DNA from: a virus
Taxonomy: Duplodnaviria > Caudoviricetes
Length of the DNA stretch: 62,216 nucleotides
IMG/VR virus record: IMGVR_UViG_3300046357_000001
Span: 1-62,216 of that record
Reading direction: 5' to 3' (one strand)
The notes beneath the pieces are model-generated. The model saw only the letters and a list, made by a program, of their open reading frames with translations, was not told where the DNA came from and searched no databases. Positions 41,364 through 48,217 of this stretch are shown here, piece after piece (position 1 is the first letter of the stretch; the number at the start of each line of letters is the position of its first letter). A program made the translations under genes and the position numbers.

Positions 41364-43793
41364 TTAAGATTTAATTTCTGTGTCAAACAATTGGGTTAGT
41401 AGTGAGTGGTCACTAACCTTTGTTTCTAATGCTTTAAACATCTTTTTCTCAATCGGTGAGCCTTGGATGTGGATGACAGTCACTTTGTCGGACGTCTGTC
41501 CCTTGCGGTCAGCACGCGCACAACACTGCACATATTGCTCCACAGACATCAACGGACCGTAGAACACAACCGTGTCGGCAGCAGTCAAGGTAATACCGTG
41601 AGCAGATGCTTGGGGCTGCATCACAAGGACGCGTGGGTCTGGGTCAGTCTGGAACCTACGGATGATGTCACCACGCTTGGAGGCAGGCACGTCACCACGA
41701 ATCATCTCTGCGCTGATACCTTTCTTCAATAGGTAGTTGTGGATGTTGTCGATACTACTGGTGAACAACGCGAAGACCAATACCTTGCGAGTCGTCTCTT
41801 CCAAGATTTCCTCCAGTACCGCCAAGCGAGGCGCCGCATCAAACTCAACCACTTCACCGTTGTCGGTGTAGGCAGCGCCACAACTGATCTGCAACAACTT
41901 CGATACACCCGCCGCCGCATTGACTGCACTGATAGTCTCGCCGCCAGTTTGAATCAGCATACGGTCTTTCAAATGCTCGTAGTACTTCTTCTGTTGCGGC
42001 GTCATCGGCACTTCACGCGTCATCGTCACCACAGGTGGCAGGTCCAAGCATTCAGCCTTAGTGAAACGAATGGCGGGTTGTAACGCCTCGAACACTGTGT
42101 CTCCTGCGTTAGCCTTCGGAGCCCACTTGAACATAGTGATCTTGTTCAGTACTTTGTCGCGCCATGCTGTGTAGAACTTAGGTACGTTGGTAGGGTTGAC
42201 CAGCTTGGCCAGCCCATATGCGTCAGCAGGCGACTGTGATGCAGGTGTACCAGTCATCATCCACAACAACGTCTCAGGCTTGATGATGGATGCCAGCGCC
42301 TTCCAGCGCCGAGTAGTAACGGTCTTGTATGCGTTGCAGTTGTGTACTAACCAGTGATCCCCAACAAAGTAGTTAGGTGTTCCCGCAACTTCGAGGTTGT
42401 AGACAGCTTCACCGTCTGGGCATTCGATATGCGAAACACTTTCCACCCAAGCGTTTCCAGCTTGGTCTCCTTCTTCCGGTCTTGCGCTTGGCGTGCTGTC
42501 GCTGTATGACTCCCCCCGTCCACCTCCAGCCCTATCTTGAGGTGCGGCAATGCGAAGTCGAGCTTGTAGTTCGTAGGAAAGCCTTGCTGCCTCTTTCCCA
42601 ACGCTACGGGGTAGTTCCATACCCAACCCACAGGCAAGACCTTGGAAATCAAACACTCTGTTGGAGTCATCCCCGTGCCATTGCCGCCCCGCACCTTGGG
42701 TTTGAGCCCCAGCGCCTTTGCTGCCGCTGACAGTTTCGCTCGGTGTTCCGCAGTCTTTGGCCCCGAAGGTTTCCCCCGCTGCTCGTGTGGCATTTCGCAA
42801 AAGTAGCTCTTGCTGGGGTTCAGTAAGTGCCATCTCTTCCGTGCGCAGGATTTGGAGCAGGTCTGTCCAAGCGCCTTTTGGTACTTTTGCGCCCATGTGT
42901 ACCGGGATTGTGGAAAGTGGTACTCCTGCCCGCAAACAGGACAGTTCAAGACCAGATATAAGCCGTCTACCCGTAAGATTTTTGGCACACATCCATCCAG
43001 CGTCTGTGAAGAATGGGTGCTCTGGGGTGCACCGAATTGTTTTTCCGTTTCCAAGTTTGACCTCGACAATCTGTTTAGTGGTATTGCGTACAAGCCTGTT
43101 TATACCCATTACTCCGTCAGATGTCAAGACCTTATCCCCCATTTGCAGTTGTTCTATGGGCCGTCTACCTTGTGGGGTAGCCACCAAAGTCCCTGCTACA
43201 AAGCACTCATCAACGATAACCAGATCGAACTTGCCGTTGGCGTTTATCTCATCAGCAATTAAGTTCAAGCCTTCGTAGTTGGTAATGACGAACTCATAGT
43301 TCTGTTGCACCATCTCGATACGACGCGATGCTTGTGGGTGGTGGGCGATGATCGCGCTACGGTGAATGACGCTTGCGTTCAAGTCCTGCATCCAAGCTGA
43401 CTGCATGATCGACAACGGACACAGCACAAGGACTCGTCTCACTTCACCACGTGTCATCAAGTAGTCCGCGGCCCACAATGCTGAGAGCGTCTTGCCTGTG
43501 CCGGGCTCGCTAAACACGAATGCCTTGCGGTTGAGCGTTAGGAAAGATGCTGTATCAATCTGGTGTGCCATTGGCTTGTGACGGCCGGGCCAGTTATAGC
43601 GGCGTGTGATTGGTGAAGGTACGTCCTTCACCCCTAAGTTTTTAAGCACTCGACATTCGTCTAGTCCCCAGAAAACAGCTACCTCCGCAGACCCGTCTTC
43701 GTATTGCTCGACGACTTTGCTGCGGGGAATGACTGTGTACTTTTCTGGGTTTCTAGTTCGAAGGAGCAGCGCCTTGTCTTCGATGATTTCCAT
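41364..43793 (-). CDS. SNF2-family helicase containing an intein
   Basis: EPGTGKT, VIVDE|intein|CN, MTGTP, HGITLT, ARADRKGQ. Confidence 0.9.
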   Translation of the reverse strand: MEIIEDKALLLRTRNPEKYTVIPRSKVVEQYEDGSAEVAVFWGLDECRVLKNLGVKDVPSPITRRYNWPGRHKPMAHQIDTASFLTLNRKAFVFSEPGTGKTLSALWAADYLMTRGEVRRVLVLCPLSIMQSAWMQDLNASVIHRSAIIAHHPQASRRIEMVQQNYEFVITNYEGLNLIADEINANGKFDLVIVDECFVAGTLVATPQGRRPIEQLQMGDKVLTSDGVMGINRLVRNTTKQIVEVKLGNGKTIRCTPEHPFFTDAGWMCAKNLTGRRLISGLELSCLRAGVPLSTIPVHMGAKVPKGAWTDLLQILRTEEMALTEPQQELLLRNATRAAGETFGAKDCGTPSETVSGSKGAGAQTQGAGRQWHGDDSNRVFDFQGLACGLGMELPRSVGKEAARLSYELQARLRIAAPQDRAGGGRGESYSDSTPSARPEEGDQAGNAWVESVSHIECPDGEAVYNLEVAGTPNYFVGDHWLVHNCNAYKTVTTRRWKALASIIKPETLLWMMTGTPASQSPADAYGLAKLVNPTNVPKFYTAWRDKVLNKITMFKWAPKANAGDTVFEALQPAIRFTKAECLDLPPVVTMTREVPMTPQQKKYYEHLKDRMLIQTGGETISAVNAAAGVSKLLQISCGAAYTDNGEVVEFDAAPRLAVLEEILEETTRKVLVFALFTSSIDNIHNYLLKKGISAEMIRGDVPASKRGDIIRRFQTDPDPRVLVMQPQASAHGITLTAADTVVFYGPLMSVEQYVQCCARADRKGQTSDKVTVIHIQGSPIEKKMFKALETKVSDHSLLTQLFDTEIKS
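42339..43205 (-). mobile_element. Intein (289 aa) inserted in helicase Walker B
   Basis: Block A CFVAGTLV, block B CTPEHPF, block F VYNLEV, block G LVHN, +1 residue Cys. Confidence 0.95.
42347..42988 (-). CDS. DUF559/Vsr-like PD-(D/E)xK endonuclease overprinted in the +1 frame of the helicase intein
   Basis: CPVC...CSKSC Zn site, KTAEHRAKLS (NUMOD3-like), MTPTE, YKLDFA...LEVDGGSH...DRKK...LGWKVFRI. The GTG start at 42988 is a candidate; the frame is open from 43093. Confidence 0.85.
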   Translation of the reverse strand: MPKILRVDGLYLVLNCPVCGQEYHFPQSRYTWAQKYQKALGQTCSKSCARKRWHLLNPSKSYFCEMPHEQRGKPSGPKTAEHRAKLSAAAKALGLKPKVRGGNGTGMTPTECLISKVLPVGWVWNYPVALGKRQQGFPTNYKLDFALPHLKIGLEVDGGSHTATARQAQDRKKETKLETLGWKVFRISNAQTVKLSTTSKLREHLTTLLGITG

Positions 43794-43808: not shown

Positions 43809-44048
43809 TTATTTGTTATCGCCTTCGTTTGCTTTCTTGGCACGCAAACGCAAATTGCCCGGAGTTGTCTTACCACCCTTGCGCAGTGGCTTGATGTGGT
43901 CGATGTCCTTACCTGCGCGGTCGATACCCTTCTTGTCAAACAACTGGCGTGCGCGTTGGCGCTCGGATTGGTCAGACCCCGGACCGGACTTGCCGGTCTC
44001 TAGGTCACGTTTGTATTCTTTTGCGTAGTCGCGTTTGCGTGTTGCCAT
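43809..44048 (-). CDS. Small HNH-motif protein
   Basis: DIDHIKPLRKGG...NLR...N. Confidence 0.75.
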   Translation of the reverse strand: MATRKRDYAKEYKRDLETGKSGPGSDQSERQRARQLFDKKGIDRAGKDIDHIKPLRKGGKTTPGNLRLRAKKANEGDNK

Positions 44049-44057
44049 GATTTACTT

Positions 44058-44720
44058 TCAGTGTTTTTTGTGGAACTCACAGCCAGTGCAAGGACACCAG
44101 CCGCAGAGCGGGGTACGTGTTGGATTCCATACATCGTTGTCGATGCACGAAGCGATACGGCTAACGCGTTCACGATACTTCCACCATTCGGAGTCCATCT
44201 CGTCAACGTTCATGCTGTGCTTAACCATATCATTCTTGACCACGAAGAGCAACGCTGAGTTGACCTTGCGGATGTGCGGGAAGTGCTTGAATACCATCAC
44301 TGACATGAGGCGTAGCTGGTCACGGTCTGGGTACTTGTTGTTACCCGTCTTGTAGTCCACCACCCATGCAGTCAGGTTCTCGTCATCAATGATGAGCAAG
44401 TCGGCTACGCCCCTCACCCATGCATCTTTGGCAAACCATTCAGTCGGTGTCAGGTCTTCCTTCAGTGTCATCTTGTACTCAGCCAACTTGCGGCCGGGCT
44501 TGTTGATGAGCGCATCGAGCGTGTCCTTAACAAACTCAAACTGCTTGGGCAGCGGTGTGCCCTCACCTACGTAGAGTTCGGCTGCCTTGTGCAGCTCGTT
44601 ACCGTAGCGCGTAGCCTCGGTCTCCACGAATGGGTGCATCTTCAGAATACGTGTGGCGTGATACTTCCGCGCACACTGCTCAAACTCCTTGAGCGATGAA
44701 TGTGACCATGATATTTTCAT
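44058..44720 (-). CDS. Cas4-like/PD-(D/E)xK exonuclease
   Basis: WSHSSL...C, GNELH, RGVAD, VDYKTG, QL, CGWCPCTGC. Confidence 0.85.
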   Translation of the reverse strand: MKISWSHSSLKEFEQCARKYHATRILKMHPFVETEATRYGNELHKAAELYVGEGTPLPKQFEFVKDTLDALINKPGRKLAEYKMTLKEDLTPTEWFAKDAWVRGVADLLIIDDENLTAWVVDYKTGNNKYPDRDQLRLMSVMVFKHFPHIRKVNSALLFVVKNDMVKHSMNVDEMDSEWWKYRERVSRIASCIDNDVWNPTRTPLCGWCPCTGCEFHKKH

Positions 44721-45037
44721 AAGTTTCCTGCTGGGTGAAGAATTCGTTTTGCGGTTATGTAGGCAGCATGGGCTTCTTCGGCGGTATCAAAATATCCCAA
44801 GTGCTTTCGCTTCCCATCAACCTTGATGAAAGAAATAAAACGCTTGTGTCGTTTGTGCCAACTAGCGCCTAGTAGTTGCGTTGACTTGTTCTTCGGGCGG
44901 TACGCTTTTTGATTCTGTCCGTTCAACTTGTGGTTGGAAAGGCGTAGGTTCTTAAAGCGGTTATCAAGTGGGTTTCCGTTGATATGGTCAATCATTTCTG
45001 TAGGCCACACCCCCGTCTCAAACAACCAAACAATCTT
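44717..45037 (-). pseudogene. 5'-truncated HNH-AP2 homing endonuclease
   Basis: An in-frame stop directly precedes KIVWLFETGVWP; then IDHINGNPLDNRFKNLR and AP2-like HLGYFDTAEEAHAAY. Only a TTG or internal ATG start is available. Confidence 0.65.
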
Positions 45038-45355: not shown

Positions 45356-48217
45356 TTATTTCTTTGCTAACCCGTATCGTCTGTGTGCGCCACCGTCAGC
45401 GTCGAGCGGAATGCCCTTCAAATACTTTGGCTCCATAGTCATCTGCGCCAAGACCCAAGTCTTAGCGTCATCCACCTCTGCATCAGGCACAACCACGATC
45501 TGTTCATCATGCACTGTTCCCGCCACGAAGTACTTCTTCGAGGTTCTCAACATACCATCCGTCATCACGCATCTCGCTACGCCCTGCGTGACGTTGTTGG
45601 TAATCTTTCCAGCGTACAGTTTAGTCTCATCTGCGCCGTATGTCCACTGCACCCTACCTTTTTCATCCTTGCCACGCTTCAAGTCCGGATACAGCAAGCT
45701 CATGCCAGAGGGCAGCACGATCTCGCCCTTCTTAAACGTCAGGCATTTGTATGTGTATTCCTTGCCACCGAACAAGCTAGTCTCGATGAGCTGGCCGCAC
45801 ATGCCCCAGAAGTCCACAACAGGCTGCGCAGTCTTACGGTACTTGTCGATAATCTTCTTGGCCGCTAGGCAGTGGATGAGCAACTCTGCCTTGGTACAGA
45901 TGTGCGGTATCTCATTCATCTTTTCAACGAAGTCTTCATTGTCCAAGAACTTCTCAACGTCTTCCGCCGTGACGCCCAGTGCCTTGGCGAACTTTCGCTC
46001 GTACCGTACAGGTGGCGCACCCAAGAAGCCCACGAGGAGTTGAGACGCAAATGATGCCCAACCTAACCCATACCCGCAGTTGTGCACAATCAATGGCCCT
46101 GCGTCCGTCCGAATGGTGTATCTGTTACGCGGCCCTGCATAAGCGATGTCGTAGGTCTGCATTCTCTGCTTCAAGGGTTGCGATGCGGGTGCGTAGTTCG
46201 ACAACTTCTCGTGCGGTGATTTTGCGCTTGTTGGACATATTGACGCTGCGGTTGACGAAGCGAAGGTTGCTTGGTTCATAACCTCGGTTGTTGTCTGTCC
46301 TATCCAGTTGAAGTTCTGGTTTGTCCCACCCCTCAAGCCCAACGAGGTAACGTAAGAATTCAACACGGTTCGCAACCCATTCTGGGTAAACCGTAATTCC
46401 ACGCCCCCCATAGTCGGGGTACACGGAACTGTTCGGGTTTGTGCATCTGACGATGATGGCGCTGATTCTGTCCAAAAGTCGAGCACGATGCTTTCGATCA
46501 GGGCAAACAGCGAAATATCCTTTTCGTTCCCATCGAGTTTCAACAGCCTTTCTTTTAGCGCAGGCATCGCAGCGCGTAGTACGCCCTGCAACAATGTTAT
46601 ATCTATCGACAAACCCCGACCACCCGCAGGAGCACTGCACAACAGGATGGAATCCACCAGTTGTCTTGCGATCCCAGCGGAGGCAGGTAAGCTCGCCGAT
46701 GACAGCGCCGATTTCAAAAGGGAACGGTTTGCTAGGGCCTCTGACCACTCCACCCACCCCCGTTCCGTCAGAATTTCGTGGCCCGAAGTCGCGCTTACCC
46801 CCAGTGCTGTCAGCACTTCCTTTTCGCCTTGCGGCACTAACCCCTGATGACATACCCACTCCTCTCCATCCCATACCATATCCGTAGCCTGTACCCGTGT
46901 TATAGGTATCCAACCGCGTCTAGTCAACACAGGCGTGTCGGGGCCGAAGCACCCAAGTAAAGCGGACTTCGCTGACTGCCGAAGGTCGGGGTGTGACTCT
47001 TTTGACAGGCCCGGGATGTTGAACATCTGAGCGCCGAACTGTGCGTAGGGGTCACCGCCCGCGACGAAGATGCGTAGGAGTTCGTCGTATTCTGCCAGCC
47101 ATGCGAGAACCCGAGGCTCGATCTGCGATAAGTCGCCGACGACCAACTGATAGCCTTTCGGAGCCATGATAGCTTTGCGGAGAAACGAACCACGTTTGAG
47201 GTTTTGCATGTTGATGGCCGAACCTTTGCTTGCAGTCCACCGTCCCGTCGCAGCACCATAGTACGAGAGTGGTACAGGAAGCGTGCCCCGTCCGGCGATG
47301 TCGAGGAACCGTTGTGCACGAGTCCTCTCCGTGGTGGATTTAACTGAGAGCCTTGCTTGGCATAGTGCTTGAACATCTTCGTTGTCTCCGTTCAACATGG
47401 CTTGGAACATCGCATCGGTTTTGGCAAACGCGAAGTTAACACCCGTCGGATGCGGTGTCTTGGCCGTGGGTTTCTTTTTCTTGGTAGGTGGCTCGATGCC
47501 CACTAAGCGCAACGTCTCAGCGAAGCGCACGTTACTGGCCAAGTCCCCACCCATCACCTCAAGGCGGGCAAGCAAGGCTTCACGCTTCTCCTTCTCATCA
47601 TGCAAGGCATCGACCAACATGTTTTGATCCAGTACCAGCACGGGACGCGTGTACATCTTCAACGTCATGTCGATGAGTCTCAGCTCCTTTGCTGGATAGG
47701 ATGCAGCCAGCCTTTTGAATATTTCTTCGCACAGAAACACATCATGTTGGCAGTACTCAGCGAGTTCTCTTTCGAGCGTGGCGTCCAACTCGTGAACTCC
47801 ATTAGTTGAATATACGGCCGTGCCTTTAGCCGGGAGGCCGAAGTCGGTTGCCAGTTTCGCGAGGGAATTACCAACTTCCACGCCTCGTAAAGCTCGGCCC
47901 ATTGATAAGGTGTCGAAGATGAAGCAGGGGTGGATCTTGTACTTCCATTCGAGGATGGCCACATCGAACTGTGCGTTATGCGCGAGGATGGCCGTGTTGT
48001 CCCAGTCGAATGTCTGAAGGACTCGAGGTAGTTCATCTCCTCGATACCACTGCACAATTCCGTCGCTTCCGTATACATGGAGGCAAGCTCCGAATACTTT
48101 GAATCTATCATGGCGTATGTACTCCTCGGTTGTCATCTTCGATAGGGTGTAACCGCTAGCGGTGTCCCAGTAGGTTTCGTAGTCGATTGTTACGATCTGT
48201 TTAAAAGGTGCACTCAT
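45356..48217 (-). CDS. Family A DNA polymerase with 3'-5' exonuclease, containing an intein
   Basis: IDYET, AHNAQFD, YCQHD, ATGRW, NMQN, motif A DLSQIEPR, motif B RQSAKSALLG|intein|CGYG, motif C TVHDE. Confidence 0.95.
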   Translation of the reverse strand: MSAPFKQIVTIDYETYWDTASGYTLSKMTTEEYIRHDRFKVFGACLHVYGSDGIVQWYRGDELPRVLQTFDWDNTAILAHNAQFDVAILEWKYKIHPCFIFDTLSMGRALRGVEVGNSLAKLATDFGLPAKGTAVYSTNGVHELDATLERELAEYCQHDVFLCEEIFKRLAASYPAKELRLIDMTLKMYTRPVLVLDQNMLVDALHDEKEKREALLARLEVMGGDLASNVRFAETLRLVGIEPPTKKKKPTAKTPHPTGVNFAFAKTDAMFQAMLNGDNEDVQALCQARLSVKSTTERTRAQRFLDIAGRGTLPVPLSYYGAATGRWTASKGSAINMQNLKRGSFLRKAIMAPKGYQLVVGDLSQIEPRVLAWLAEYDELLRIFVAGGDPYAQFGAQMFNIPGLSKESHPDLRQSAKSALLGCFGPDTPVLTRRGWIPITRVQATDMVWDGEEWVCHQGLVPQGEKEVLTALGVSATSGHEILTERGWVEWSEALANRSLLKSALSSASLPASAGIARQLVDSILLCSAPAGGRGLSIDITLLQGVLRAAMPALKERLLKLDGNEKDISLFALIESIVLDFWTESAPSSSDAQTRTVPCTPTMGGVELRFTQNGLRTVLNSYVTSLGLRGGTNQNFNWIGQTTTEVMNQATFASSTAASICPTSAKSPHEKLSNYAPASQPLKQRMQTYDIAYAGPRNRYTIRTDAGPLIVHNCGYGLGWASFASQLLVGFLGAPPVRYERKFAKALGVTAEDVEKFLDNEDFVEKMNEIPHICTKAELLIHCLAAKKIIDKYRKTAQPVVDFWGMCGQLIETSLFGGKEYTYKCLTFKKGEIVLPSGMSLLYPDLKRGKDEKGRVQWTYGADETKLYAGKITNNVTQGVARCVMTDGMLRTSKKYFVAGTVHDEQIVVVPDAEVDDAKTWVLAQMTMEPKYLKGIPLDADGGAHRRYGLAKK
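46079..46951 (-). mobile_element. Intein (291 aa) inserted in polymerase motif B
   Basis: Block A CFGPDTPV, block B ATSGHEI, block F TYDI, block G IVHN, +1 residue Cys. Confidence 0.95.
46125..46853 (-). CDS. HNH-like endonuclease overprinted in the +2 frame of the polymerase intein
   Basis: CSCG...CDAC, RCTNPN...YGGRGITV...W...LDRTDNNRGYEPSNLRFV...N..NKR. ATG 46853 is preceded by GGAGAGGAG; GTG 46748 is an alternative start. Confidence 0.88.
   Translation of the reverse strand: MSSGVSAARRKGSADSTGGKRDFGPRNSDGTGVGGVVRGPSKPFPFEIGAVIGELTCLRWDRKTTGGFHPVVQCSCGWSGFVDRYNIVAGRTTRCDACAKRKAVETRWERKGYFAVCPDRKHRARLLDRISAIIVRCTNPNSSVYPDYGGRGITVYPEWVANRVEFLRYLVGLEGWDKPELQLDRTDNNRGYEPSNLRFVNRSVNMSNKRKITAREVVELRTRIATLEAENADLRHRLCRAA

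What the first reader, a model, noticed from the sequence alone, without database searches (positions are those of the whole stretch)
46079..46951. Polymerase intein: HNH-like nuclease in +2 frame with a Shine-Dalgarno made from intein codons
Seen: on the - strand, tgg gat gga gag gag tgg gta tgt (intein WDGEEWVC) reads as GGAGAGGAG-6 nt-ATG, a strong RBS opening a 242-aa ORF that ends at TAA 46127-46125 near block F. A second candidate start, GTG 46748, lies just after the GW codons following block B, the same relative position as in the helicase intein. The product has CxCG/CxxC, YGGRGI and DRxDNNRGYEPxNxR motifs of phage HNH-type homing endonucleases. Inference: intein coding sequence was co-opted as the translation signal for the nested gene.
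Basis: partly seen in the sequence, partly recalled or inferred. Interest (0 to 1): 0.88.

Follow-up and report, generated by a model that had tools for sequence, protein, structure and literature searches.

The report
Hidden homing endonuclease inside polymerase intein
A phage DNA polymerase gene carries a self-splicing intein that has a second, conserved nuclease gene hidden in another reading frame, an arrangement first described in 2025-26 preprints and here found in many phages, including lab-tractable Salmonella and E. coli phages.

Summary
On the minus strand a family-A DNA polymerase gene (45356-48217) carries a class-1 intein in motif B at 46079-46951. A 242-aa ORF (ATG 46853 to TAA 46125) lies in the polymerase +2 frame and encodes a PacI/I-HmuI-like HNH nuclease.

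Both frames are open in 59 related loci, and sequence variation follows the nuclease frame between the splicing blocks. The polymerase-frame linker is predicted disordered.

Evidence for a start near the intein motif WDGEEW:
- The +2 frame is kept open from that point in 48 of 51 loci (17.5 expected).
- A usable ATG is present in 45 of 49 loci (17 expected).
- These results favour ATG 46853 over GTG 46748.

The GGAGAGGAG is real, with a 5-nt spacer rather than 6. It follows from the Gly-Glu-Glu codons: 38% of synonymous recodings bind the anti-Shine-Dalgarno more strongly. No expression data exist.

Novelty is limited. Out-of-frame endonucleases in inteins were described in preprints in 2025 (actinophages) and 2026 (cyanobacterial dnaX, Shine-Dalgarno motifs noted). 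This is a new, widespread member in Jerseyvirus, Kagunavirus and environmental phages. It is not annotated as a separate gene in the seven GenBank records I opened.

The parts
45356..48217 (-). Family-A DNA polymerase precursor gene (953 aa) with a 3'-5' exonuclease domain, interrupted by the intein in motif B (…RQSAKSALLG|intein|CGYGLG…).
   Evidence: ORF. Pfam DNA_pol_A E=4e-16 and DNA_pol_A_exo1 E=2e-5. PHROG 17 DNA polymerase E=5e-65.
46079..46951 (-). Class-1 intein, 873 nt / 291 aa. It has Cys1, block B T-S-G-H, block F/G …GPRNRY…LIVHN, and a +1 Cys.
   Evidence: Boundaries, with the same insertion site in 35 of 35 bounded inteins. The folded part of the AF2 model matches mini-inteins (Ssp DnaB 6frg E=4e-4, DnaX 7cfv, gp41-1).
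46682..46951 (-). N-terminal splicing region (intein aa 1-90, blocks A-B). The polymerase frame is the constrained one, and the 5' part of the nested ORF overlaps it.
   Evidence: pLDDT 89-98. Polymerase codon position 3 is the most variable over intein nt 1-180.
46184..46678 (-). Polymerase-frame linker (intein aa 92-256). It is kept free of stops but is otherwise unconstrained and predicted disordered.
   Evidence: pLDDT 26-48. Mean identity to the window is 28%, against 58% in the splicing blocks.
46079..46183 (-). C-terminal splicing region (intein aa 257-291, blocks F-G).
   Evidence: pLDDT 89-97. Variation returns to polymerase position 3 from intein nt 781.
46125..46853 (-). Nested ORF in the polymerase +2 (= -1) frame, 242 aa plus TAA. 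Residues 1-44 are a disordered tail read from the intein block A-B codons. Residues 45-242 form a folded PacI/I-HmuI-like HNH nuclease with a C-terminal long helix.
   Evidence: The nuclease frame is under purifying selection over intein nt about 181-780.
46859..46867 (-). Shine-Dalgarno-like GGAGAGGAG made of the Gly-Glu-Glu codons, 5 nt upstream of ATG 46853.
   Evidence: Sequence. Pairing energy -8.6 to -9.4 kcal/mol. The phage's own genes use GGAG with a 6-9 nt spacer before ATG.
46851..46853 (-). Favoured start codon ATG, from GT[A TG]T, the Val-Cys codons of the intein. GTG 46859-46857 (Glu-Trp codons) sits at the site where most relatives have their ATG.
46746..46748 (-). Alternative start GTG just after block B. 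It would give a protein the size of the free-standing homologues.
   Evidence: The free-standing homologues begin about 10 aa before the GxLT motif.
46560..46634 (-). Cys cluster (CxC…CxxC) of the nested protein. This is a likely zinc ribbon within an SH3/Tudor-like N-terminal domain.
   Evidence: Invariant C74, C76 and C95. The N-terminal domain matches small beta-barrels with Z about 5.
46230..46307 (-). Putative beta-beta-alpha-metal catalytic motif L-D-R-x-D-N-x-x-G-Y-x-P-x-N-x-R…N.
   Evidence: Invariant D184, R185, Y192, P194, N196 and N208. It aligns with the PacI and I-HmuI motifs.

Best explanation
The window holds a composite mobile element: a class-1 intein in motif B of a phage family-A DNA polymerase, with a separate homing-endonuclease gene written in the polymerase +2 (= -1) frame across almost the whole intein.

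Proposed mechanism:
- Ribosomes reading the polymerase frame make the precursor. The two splicing halves fold, the 165-aa linker stays disordered, and the intein splices out (inferred).
- Other ribosomes start inside the intein at the Shine-Dalgarno-like GGAGAGGAG plus ATG 46853, both built from the codons of the conserved intein motif W-D-G-E-E-W-V-C.
- They make a 242-aa protein with a disordered, basic 44-aa tail, a zinc-ribbon/beta-barrel domain, a PacI-like HNH catalytic domain and a C-terminal long helix.
- This nuclease is inferred to cut intein-less polymerase alleles at motif B during co-infection, so that repair copies the intein and the nuclease gene together (homing).

Shown here: the anatomy, two-frame conservation, selection on each frame, and selection for an open frame and an ATG at the upstream site.

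Inferred: translation from that site, nuclease activity, target site and splicing.
For: - HNH identity. PHROG 374 E=1.4e-31. Profile matches to PacI (E=0.16) and I-HmuI (E=0.2) align the D-R-x-D…Y-x-P-x-N-x-R…N motif. PacI-DNA complex 3m7k_A gives Z 5.4, rmsd 3.5, 88 aligned. The AF2 model has pLDDT 85.9, with residues 45-242 folded.
- Two open frames. Of the 91 loci with a tblastn match, 56 have the polymerase frame (nuclease frame +1) open across the whole match, 3 more do so at contig edges, and 3 have the other offset. The remaining 29, mostly more distant (28-48% identity), have both other frames closed, which serves as the control.
- Phase of variation in 6 close relatives. Polymerase position 3 is most variable at intein nt 1-180 and 781-873. 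Polymerase position 2, which is nuclease position 3, is most variable at nt 181-780 (0.47-0.65 against 0.10-0.32).
- The linker is not a domain: pLDDT 26-48, 28% identity against 56% in the nuclease frame.
- Intein fold: the listed Foldseek matches are almost all inteins or Hint-type domains.
- Start region. The +2 frame is open from -52 to -20 codons in 48 of 51 loci against 17.5 expected. Control: 18 of 49 against 18.3. The result holds for 16 clusters at 60% identity (15.0 against 5.8). A usable ATG at -63..-49 occurs in 45 of 49 against 16.8-17.0 expected; later regions are weaker. In 9 loci, among them L001, L007, L008, L017, L028, L029, L036 and L048, a +2-frame stop lies right before that ATG or one codon before it.
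- Shine-Dalgarno. GGAG-type sites are the phage's norm, and only 1.5% of 324 internal ATGs match this one.
- Mobility. Among Jerseyvirus relatives, 151 of 404 matching records hold the intein. Others at up to 96.9% identity lack exactly 897 nt, with a clean junction.
Against: - There are no RNA, ribosome-profiling or protein data. Translation, cleavage and splicing are all inferred.
- In this window the Shine-Dalgarno is no stronger than synonymous recodings (-8.6 against -8.4 kcal/mol; 38% of recodings are stronger). Family-wide enrichment is small (-7.9 against -6.9, Wilcoxon p=0.013, n=46, not corrected for relatedness).
- The first 44 residues are not constrained in the nuclease frame and are predicted disordered. 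Free-standing homologues start about 10 residues before the conserved domain. A start after block B would therefore make the 'natural' protein.
- Three loci (L054, L057, L058) have +2-frame stops downstream of the upstream site and must start later.
- The HNH general-base His is replaced by an invariant Arg. No Pfam HNH model matches any of the 44 members. Foldseek found no PDB match at E<=1e-3. Z 5.4 is below the level at which the tool says a match is safe.
Confidence: 0.72

Rival explanations
1. The gene and its function are as above, but translation starts after block B, at GTG 46748 or GTG 46757. This would give a protein of about 187-190 aa with the same N-terminus as free-standing homologues. 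The upstream ATG and GGAG would then be by-products of the intein sequence.
For: - Free-standing homologues begin about 10 aa before GxLT.
- The 44-aa extension is unconstrained and disordered.
- A start at -17..-22 codons exists in most loci, and ATG or GTG there occurs in 38 of 49 against 27.8 expected.
- GTG 46748 has a G-rich upstream stretch (-13.1 kcal/mol).
- Three loci can only start late.
Against: - It does not explain why the +2 frame upstream of that start is kept open in 48 of 51 loci against 17.5 expected, while the stretch before the upstream ATG is at the null.
- It does not explain why an ATG is kept upstream in 45 of 49 loci against 17 expected.
- Jerseyvirus and Kagunavirus (L001, L107) have no ATG, GTG or TTG between -44 and the conserved domain.
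Confidence: 0.2
2. The nuclease is made by -1 ribosomal frameshifting from the polymerase frame, as a fusion to the N-extein and the intein N-terminus.
For: The nuclease frame is the -1 frame of the polymerase. No separate promoter-like site lies upstream.
Against: - There is no canonical slippery heptamer in the window. Only 8 of 50 loci have any, and at non-conserved places.
- RNA folding around the site is ordinary (z = -0.11).
- +2-frame stops just before the conserved ATG in several loci leave only a short stretch where a shift could occur.
Confidence: 0.03
3. Artefact or relic: an originally in-frame HNH intein broken by two indels or assembly errors, or a dead gene no longer expressed.
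For: The window is a metagenome-assembled virus record.
Against: - The same two-frame layout is found in 59 loci from independent assemblies and in isolate genomes from many laboratories.
- Purifying selection acts in the nuclease frame.
- Free-standing homologues show the alternative frames closing within a few hundred nt.
- No in-frame long fusion was found: 2 hits among 1577 candidates of 425-2000 aa, neither an intein or polymerase (weak evidence).
Confidence: 0.02

Closest known systems
Actinobacteriophage inteins with homing endonucleases in a separate frame (Gosselin, Arsenault, Gogarten, bioRxiv 10.1101/2025.01.02.630785; I read the abstract, sections 8 and 15, and found passages)
   Same: - The endonuclease ORF lies inside the intein but not in the intein frame.
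- The intein-frame stretch has no recognisable structure.
- Free-standing relatives exist.
- The proposed origin is invasion of an intein by a free-standing endonuclease gene.
- DNA polymerase is among the host proteins.
   Different: - Their same-strand case is an endonuclease VII-like enzyme in frame 3, matched to 1E7D over residues 1-67. Here the enzyme is a PacI/I-HmuI-like protein with its catalytic motif at residues 183-208.
- Their survey covers actinophages only.
- They do not discuss ribosome binding ('ribosom' 0 occurrences).
Cyanobacterial dnaX intein with an out-of-frame LAGLIDADG endonuclease (Phillips, DeSimone, Gogarten, bioRxiv 10.64898/2026.09.14.751524; abstract and found passages)
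   Same: - The ORF is in the +2 frame inside a contiguous intein.
- Purifying selection acts on it.
- The distribution is sporadic.
[quoted passage not shown]
   Different: The host gene is cellular and the nuclease is a LAGLIDADG enzyme. I saw no test of start-site or open-frame selection against recoded controls in the passages I read.
ShiLan 'hidden' out-of-frame HNH in a phage methylase (Arsenault et al., Genes 2025, PMC11855218; abstract and section 4.3)
   Same: An HNH gene lies in another frame of an insertion that stays open in the host frame. How it is translated is called an open question.
   Different: That element has no splicing domain. The authors found no ribosome-binding site and propose leaderless-type GTG initiation.
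Fractured genes: split inteins with a free-standing endonuclease gene between the halves (Dassa et al. 2009, PMC2677866; search listing and abstract start only)
   Same: The intein and an independently translated endonuclease gene form one mobile unit. VSR-like endonucleases are involved, as in this window's helicase intein.
   Different: There the host gene and intein are physically split. Here the intein is contiguous and the two genes overlap in different frames.
PacI restriction endonuclease and the I-HmuI homing endonuclease (PDB 3ldy/3m7k, 1u3e)
   Same: They share the motif D-R/H-x-D…N…R…N at the beta-beta-alpha-metal site. PacI shows the same D-R and Y-x-P-x-N-x-R (alignment). PacI gives fold Z 5.4 over 88 residues.
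   Different: The matches are weak (E 0.16-0.2). The N-terminal beta-barrel/zinc-ribbon domain and the C-terminal long helix differ. No activity is known for this family.

Membership tests
Class-1 intein (Hint splicing domain) | N-terminal Cys/Ser, block B TxxH, C-terminal His-Asn and a +1 Cys/Ser/Thr, in frame with the host protein | tested here: met
   Cys1, T-S-G-H, …VHN followed by Cys. The polymerase frame is open across the intein. Invariant C1, T55, H58, H290 and N291 in 30 sequences.
Class-1 intein (Hint splicing domain) | Hint fold | tested here: met
   AF2 residues 1-90 and 257-291 have pLDDT 89-98. The listed Foldseek matches are almost all inteins or Hint-type domains, the best being 6frg at E=4e-4, prob 1.00. 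No Pfam Hint model reached E<=0.1 on the precursor.
Class-1 intein (Hint splicing domain) | Protein splicing activity | not testable with these tools
   Inferred from the intact catalytic residues and from the polymerase being the only one seen in the window.
HNH / beta-beta-alpha-metal nucleases | Match to a curated HNH sequence model | tested here: inconclusive
   PHROG 374, 3377, 2081 and 953 'HNH endonuclease' match with E=1e-31 to 3e-6. No Pfam HNH family matches any of the 44 members. PDB profile matches to PacI and I-HmuI are only E=0.16-0.2.
HNH / beta-beta-alpha-metal nucleases | Catalytic His (general base) plus Asn and Asn/His at the metal site | tested here: inconclusive
   The Asn residues are invariant (N196, N208). 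The His position is an invariant Arg (D184-R185), as in the PacI sequence aligned. That PacI works without this His is my recollection and was not tested here.
HNH / beta-beta-alpha-metal nucleases | Beta-beta-alpha fold similar to solved members | tested here: inconclusive
   PacI 3m7k_A gives Z 5.4, rmsd 3.5, 88 aligned, at rank 2 of 48161 chains. Foldseek found nothing at E<=1e-3.
[quoted passage not shown] | An endonuclease ORF inside a contiguous intein, in another frame, with both frames open and the endonuclease frame under purifying selection | tested here: met
[quoted passage not shown] | The intein-frame stretch over the endonuclease has no fold of its own | tested here: met
   pLDDT 26-48 for residues 92-256. 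28% identity.
Homing endonuclease (functional sense) | Cleaves the element-free allele and shows a presence/absence polymorphism | tested here: inconclusive
   The polymorphism is shown in Jerseyvirus: 151 of 404 records are intein-plus, and intein-less alleles have a clean junction. Cleavage is not testable here.

The most novel reading that the evidence does not exclude
The conserved intein motif W-D-G-x-x-W serves two purposes: it is a strand of the splicing domain and it is the ribosome-binding site and start of the nested nuclease gene. On this reading the intein and its endonuclease are a two-frame integrated unit whose first about 45 nuclease residues are read from splicing-domain codons. 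The same mini-intein at polymerase motif B has been colonised at least twice by this nuclease family in different frames: +2 in 59 loci and +1 in L069, L074 and L084. The element is active and goes unannotated in roughly 150 sequenced Salmonella and E. coli phages.
Probability: 0.5. Interest if true: 0.68.

Novelty: new member of a known kind. Interest (0 to 1): 0.58.

Why it matters
How 'hidden' out-of-frame endonucleases are translated is stated as an open question in the 2025 ShiLan paper (section 4.3). Its authors saw no ribosome-binding site there.

This family offers three things:
- It gives a clear candidate site, GGAG plus ATG, in hosts that use Shine-Dalgarno initiation.
- It gives statistical evidence that the frame and the ATG are kept from that site.
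- It occurs in easily grown Salmonella and E. coli siphophages (Jerseyvirus, Kagunavirus) that also have natural intein-less alleles, so initiation, cleavage and homing can be tested directly.

It also shows that current phage annotation misses a conserved gene in about 150 deposited genomes. Finally, it supports the view that inteins gain endonucleases by invasion of free-standing genes.

Tried and rejected
- Megablast of the polymerase gene against isolate phages found nothing; only protein-level searches did.
- phmmer of the nested protein against PDB gave only a chance-level reverse-transcriptase hit (E=0.22).
- Foldseek against PDB with the nuclease model gave no match at E<=1e-3.
- Pfam gave only weak coiled-coil-type hits (bZIP_1, INO80F) on the C-terminal helix and no nuclease family.
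- -1 frameshifting was rejected for lack of slippery sites.
- A regulatory RNA hairpin over the ribosome-binding site is not supported (z = -0.11).
- An internal sigma-70-type promoter is not supported. Two sites were found in 2.5 kb against 1.7 expected, and neither lies upstream of the nested start.
- A search for in-frame long fusions found 2 hits among 1577 candidates, neither an intein. This is weak evidence.
- Papers. Three full-text searches listed no paper describing a nested nuclease in the Jerseyvirus polymerase intein. The library lacks most subscription journals, I did not see the original vB_SenS-Ent1 paper, and supplements were closed.
- The GenBank record of Ent2 annotates the polymerase intein as 'encoding splicing domains' only.

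Rows dropped:
- From the 56 nested loci, 5 had no usable anchor or ran off the contig (L034, L035, L053, L055, L061), leaving 51.
- L020 and L022 were also left out. The script printed a polymerase-frame translation for them that is not intein-like, probably a mis-set anchor.
- L034, L054, L057 and L058 had no start at -50..-62.
- The phase-of-variation test used only the 6 closest sequences of the 9 then in hand.

I did not use the look-up of sequencing runs, read laying, complex prediction, the protein-atlas search or the search of protein representatives.


Full report
What is there. The window is a 62-kb virus record from IMG/VR, estimated about 96% complete. On the minus strand, ORF 45356-48217 encodes a 953-aa family-A DNA polymerase with a 3'-5' exonuclease domain. 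An 873-nt insertion at 46079-46951 interrupts polymerase motif B (…RQSAKSALLG | … | CGYGLG…). It has the residues of a class-1 intein: Cys1, T-S-G-H in block B, …LIVHN at the end, and a +1 Cys. An AlphaFold model of the insertion in the polymerase frame folds only at residues 1-90 and 257-291 (pLDDT 89-98). That folded part matches solved mini-inteins (Ssp DnaB 6frg E=4e-4, DnaX mini-intein, gp41-1), and the listed matches are almost all inteins or Hint-type domains. Residues 92-256 have pLDDT 26-48.

The nested gene. In the polymerase +2 (= -1) frame an ORF runs from 46913, or from ATG 46853 for 242 aa, to TAA 46127-46125. It matches PHROG 374 'HNH endonuclease' at E=1.4e-31 over residues 67-232, plus three other HNH PHROGs. 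No Pfam family matches. An alignment of 44 homologues has these invariant residues: C74, C76, C95, R136, C137, Y148, G149, R151, G152, D184, R185, Y192, P194, N196 and N208. The AlphaFold model (pLDDT 85.9) is disordered at residues 1-44 and well folded from 45 to 242: a small beta-barrel with the Cys cluster, a helical region, a beta-beta-alpha element at 182-208 and a 28-residue C-terminal helix. A profile search of PDB sequences found only PacI (E=0.16) and I-HmuI (E=0.2), but both align exactly on the D-R/H-x-D…Y-x-P-x-N-x-R…N motif. An all-against-all structure comparison placed the PacI-DNA complex second (Z 5.4, rmsd 3.5, 88 residues), while Foldseek found nothing significant. I therefore call it a PacI/I-HmuI-like HNH nuclease. 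Its membership rests mainly on the PHROG match and the motif, and the canonical His is an invariant Arg.

It is not chance and not an artefact. The best tblastn hits among isolate phages lie inside the annotated polymerase intein of Salmonella Jerseyvirus phages (about 41% identity) and of EBPR siphovirus 2 (47%). In both the match is offset by 2 nt from the annotated polymerase frame. I collected 8 IMG/VR loci and 80 metagenome loci. Of the 91 loci with a tblastn match:
- 56 have the polymerase frame open across the whole nuclease match.
- 3 more do so at contig edges.
- 3 have the other frame offset.
- 29, mostly more distant homologues (28-48% identity), are free-standing, with both other frames closed within a few hundred nucleotides.

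In six close relatives the most variable codon position switches. It is polymerase position 3 at intein nt 1-180, polymerase position 2 (= nuclease position 3) at nt 181-780, and polymerase position 3 again from nt 781. Mean identity to the window is 58% in the splicing blocks, 28% in the polymerase-frame linker and 56% in the nuclease frame over the same DNA. A search for longer, in-frame fusions found none that is an intein (weak evidence).

Where translation starts. The window's +2 frame opens at 46919. Its candidate starts are:
- TTG 46913, with pairing energy to the anti-Shine-Dalgarno of -1.6 kcal/mol.
- ATG 46874, -3.3.
- GTG 46859, -6.4.
- ATG 46853, -9.4.
- After block B, GTG 46757 (-3.5) and GTG 46748 (-13.1, from a G-rich run).

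Across relatives an ATG made from the last base of the codon before a Trp codon (xxA TGG, the second Trp of W-D-G-x-x-W) is common. The window and L005 have GTG there and an ATG two codons on, from GTA TGT. In 9 loci, among them L001, L007, L008, L017, L028, L029, L036 and L048, a +2-frame stop lies right before that ATG or one codon before it.

I tested this against a null in which each locus keeps its intein amino acids but draws synonymous codons from its own polymerase codon usage:
- The +2 frame from 52 to 20 codons upstream of the conserved GxLT motif is open in 48 of 51 loci, against 17.5 expected.
- The 33 codons just upstream of the start region are open in 18 of 49, against 18.3 expected.
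- With single-linkage clusters at 60% identity the figures are 15.0 of 16 against 5.8.
- A usable ATG at -63..-49 codons is present in 45 of 49 loci, against 16.8-17.0 expected.
- After block B (-24..-12) it is 16 against 11.3, and for ATG or GTG 38 against 27.8.

Jerseyvirus and Kagunavirus have no start codon between -44 and the conserved domain. These results favour the upstream site, which is ATG 46853 in the window. Against it:
- The 44-residue extension is not constrained in its own frame and is predicted disordered.
- Free-standing homologues begin just before the conserved domain.
- Three loci must start later.

The Shine-Dalgarno claim. GGAGAGGAG is there, with a 5-nt spacer. This phage's genes typically have GGAG 6-9 nt before ATG, and only 1.5% of 324 internal in-frame ATGs have as strong a pairing. 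However, the string follows from the amino acids. In the window the observed energy (-8.6) equals the mean of synonymous recodings (-8.4), and 38% of recodings are stronger. Over 46 loci the observed mean is -7.9 against -6.9 (Wilcoxon p=0.013, not corrected for relatedness). The purine-rich codons of a conserved intein motif thus supply a ready-made site, which is what 'co-opted' means, but selection on synonymous positions is shown for the ATG and the open frame rather than for the GGAG. I found no conserved slippery heptamer (8 of 50 loci have any, the window none), no unusual RNA structure and no promoter-like site upstream.

Mobility. Megablast with the Ent2 polymerase gene found 404 records. 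Of these, 151 cover at least 80% of the query (intein present). Many others, up to 96.9% identical, match in two pieces spanning 2202 nt, which is the query minus the 897-nt intein. Phage skrot has the clean junction RQIGKA|CELGLGYEG. The E. coli Kagunavirus fPoEco01 keeps the nested ORF, the ATG and the GGAG (TGG AGC instead of TGG AGT). This presence/absence pattern among near-identical polymerases fits homing, but cleavage was not tested.

What is known already. The architecture is in print:
- A preprint of January 2025 (revised October 2025) reports actinophage inteins whose endonucleases are encoded antisense, or in frame 3 (endonuclease VII-like). It proposes invasion by free-standing endonuclease genes and does not discuss ribosome binding.
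- A preprint of September 2026 describes a +2-frame LAGLIDADG endonuclease in the cyanobacterial dnaX intein and mentions putative Shine-Dalgarno motifs.
- The 2025 ShiLan paper treats a hidden HNH in a methylase and leaves its translation open.

I found no description of this polymerase-intein/HNH family in three full-text searches. The Ent2 GenBank record annotates the intein as splicing domains only. Supplements were closed, so overlap with the 2025 survey's polymerase inteins cannot be excluded.

Verdict. This is a new, widespread and experimentally tractable member of a recently described kind.

Noticed in passing
window 42339-43205 (helicase intein) and 42347-43093, minus strand: The SNF2-type helicase gene (41364-43793) also has an intein, with a nested DUF559/Vsr-like ORF (Pfam E=6e-8) on the same strand in another frame (host frame = nested frame +2). 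Both frames are open and the third is closed in 14 of 14 loci (the window plus L094-L106). The 2025 preprint reports VSR-like endonucleases only antisense, so this may be a new variant.
   Followed up: partly
L069:1021-1824, L074:1378-2181, L084:1465-2229: Three metagenome loci have a family-A polymerase with an intein at the same motif-B site (…K[VL]|C…VSN|CQLGLG) and a 28-32% identical HNH homologue nested in the other offset (polymerase +1 instead of +2). This suggests repeated invasion or a frame change.
   Followed up: partly
window 44717-45025, minus strand: A 102-aa ORF lies just downstream of the polymerase gene. Its translation shows an H-x-N…N…N HNH-like motif followed by an AP2-like stretch, so it is a likely free-standing homing endonuclease. 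I read this from the ORF list only.
   Followed up: no
window 43809-44048, minus strand: A 79-aa ORF has a D-H-I-K-P…N-L-R motif and may be a small HNH protein. I read this from the ORF list only.
   Followed up: no
proteins P0086 and P0099: P0086 (431 aa) carries three tandem copies of the N-terminal Cys-cluster module before one catalytic domain. P0099 (445 aa) is this HNH followed in frame by a ThyX domain (PF02511), which may be a gene-calling fusion or another nested case.
   Followed up: no
MK448670.1 (Streptococcus phage Javan113) and LR794150.1 (APSE-3): Weaker HNH matches (31-33% identity) lie under features annotated as DNA polymerase. These could be further nested or inserted copies.
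   Followed up: no
L108 (PV052269.1): The record's taxonomy line places a Jersey-like Salmonella siphophage in Rountreeviridae/Minhovirus. This looks like a mislabel in the record.
   Followed up: no
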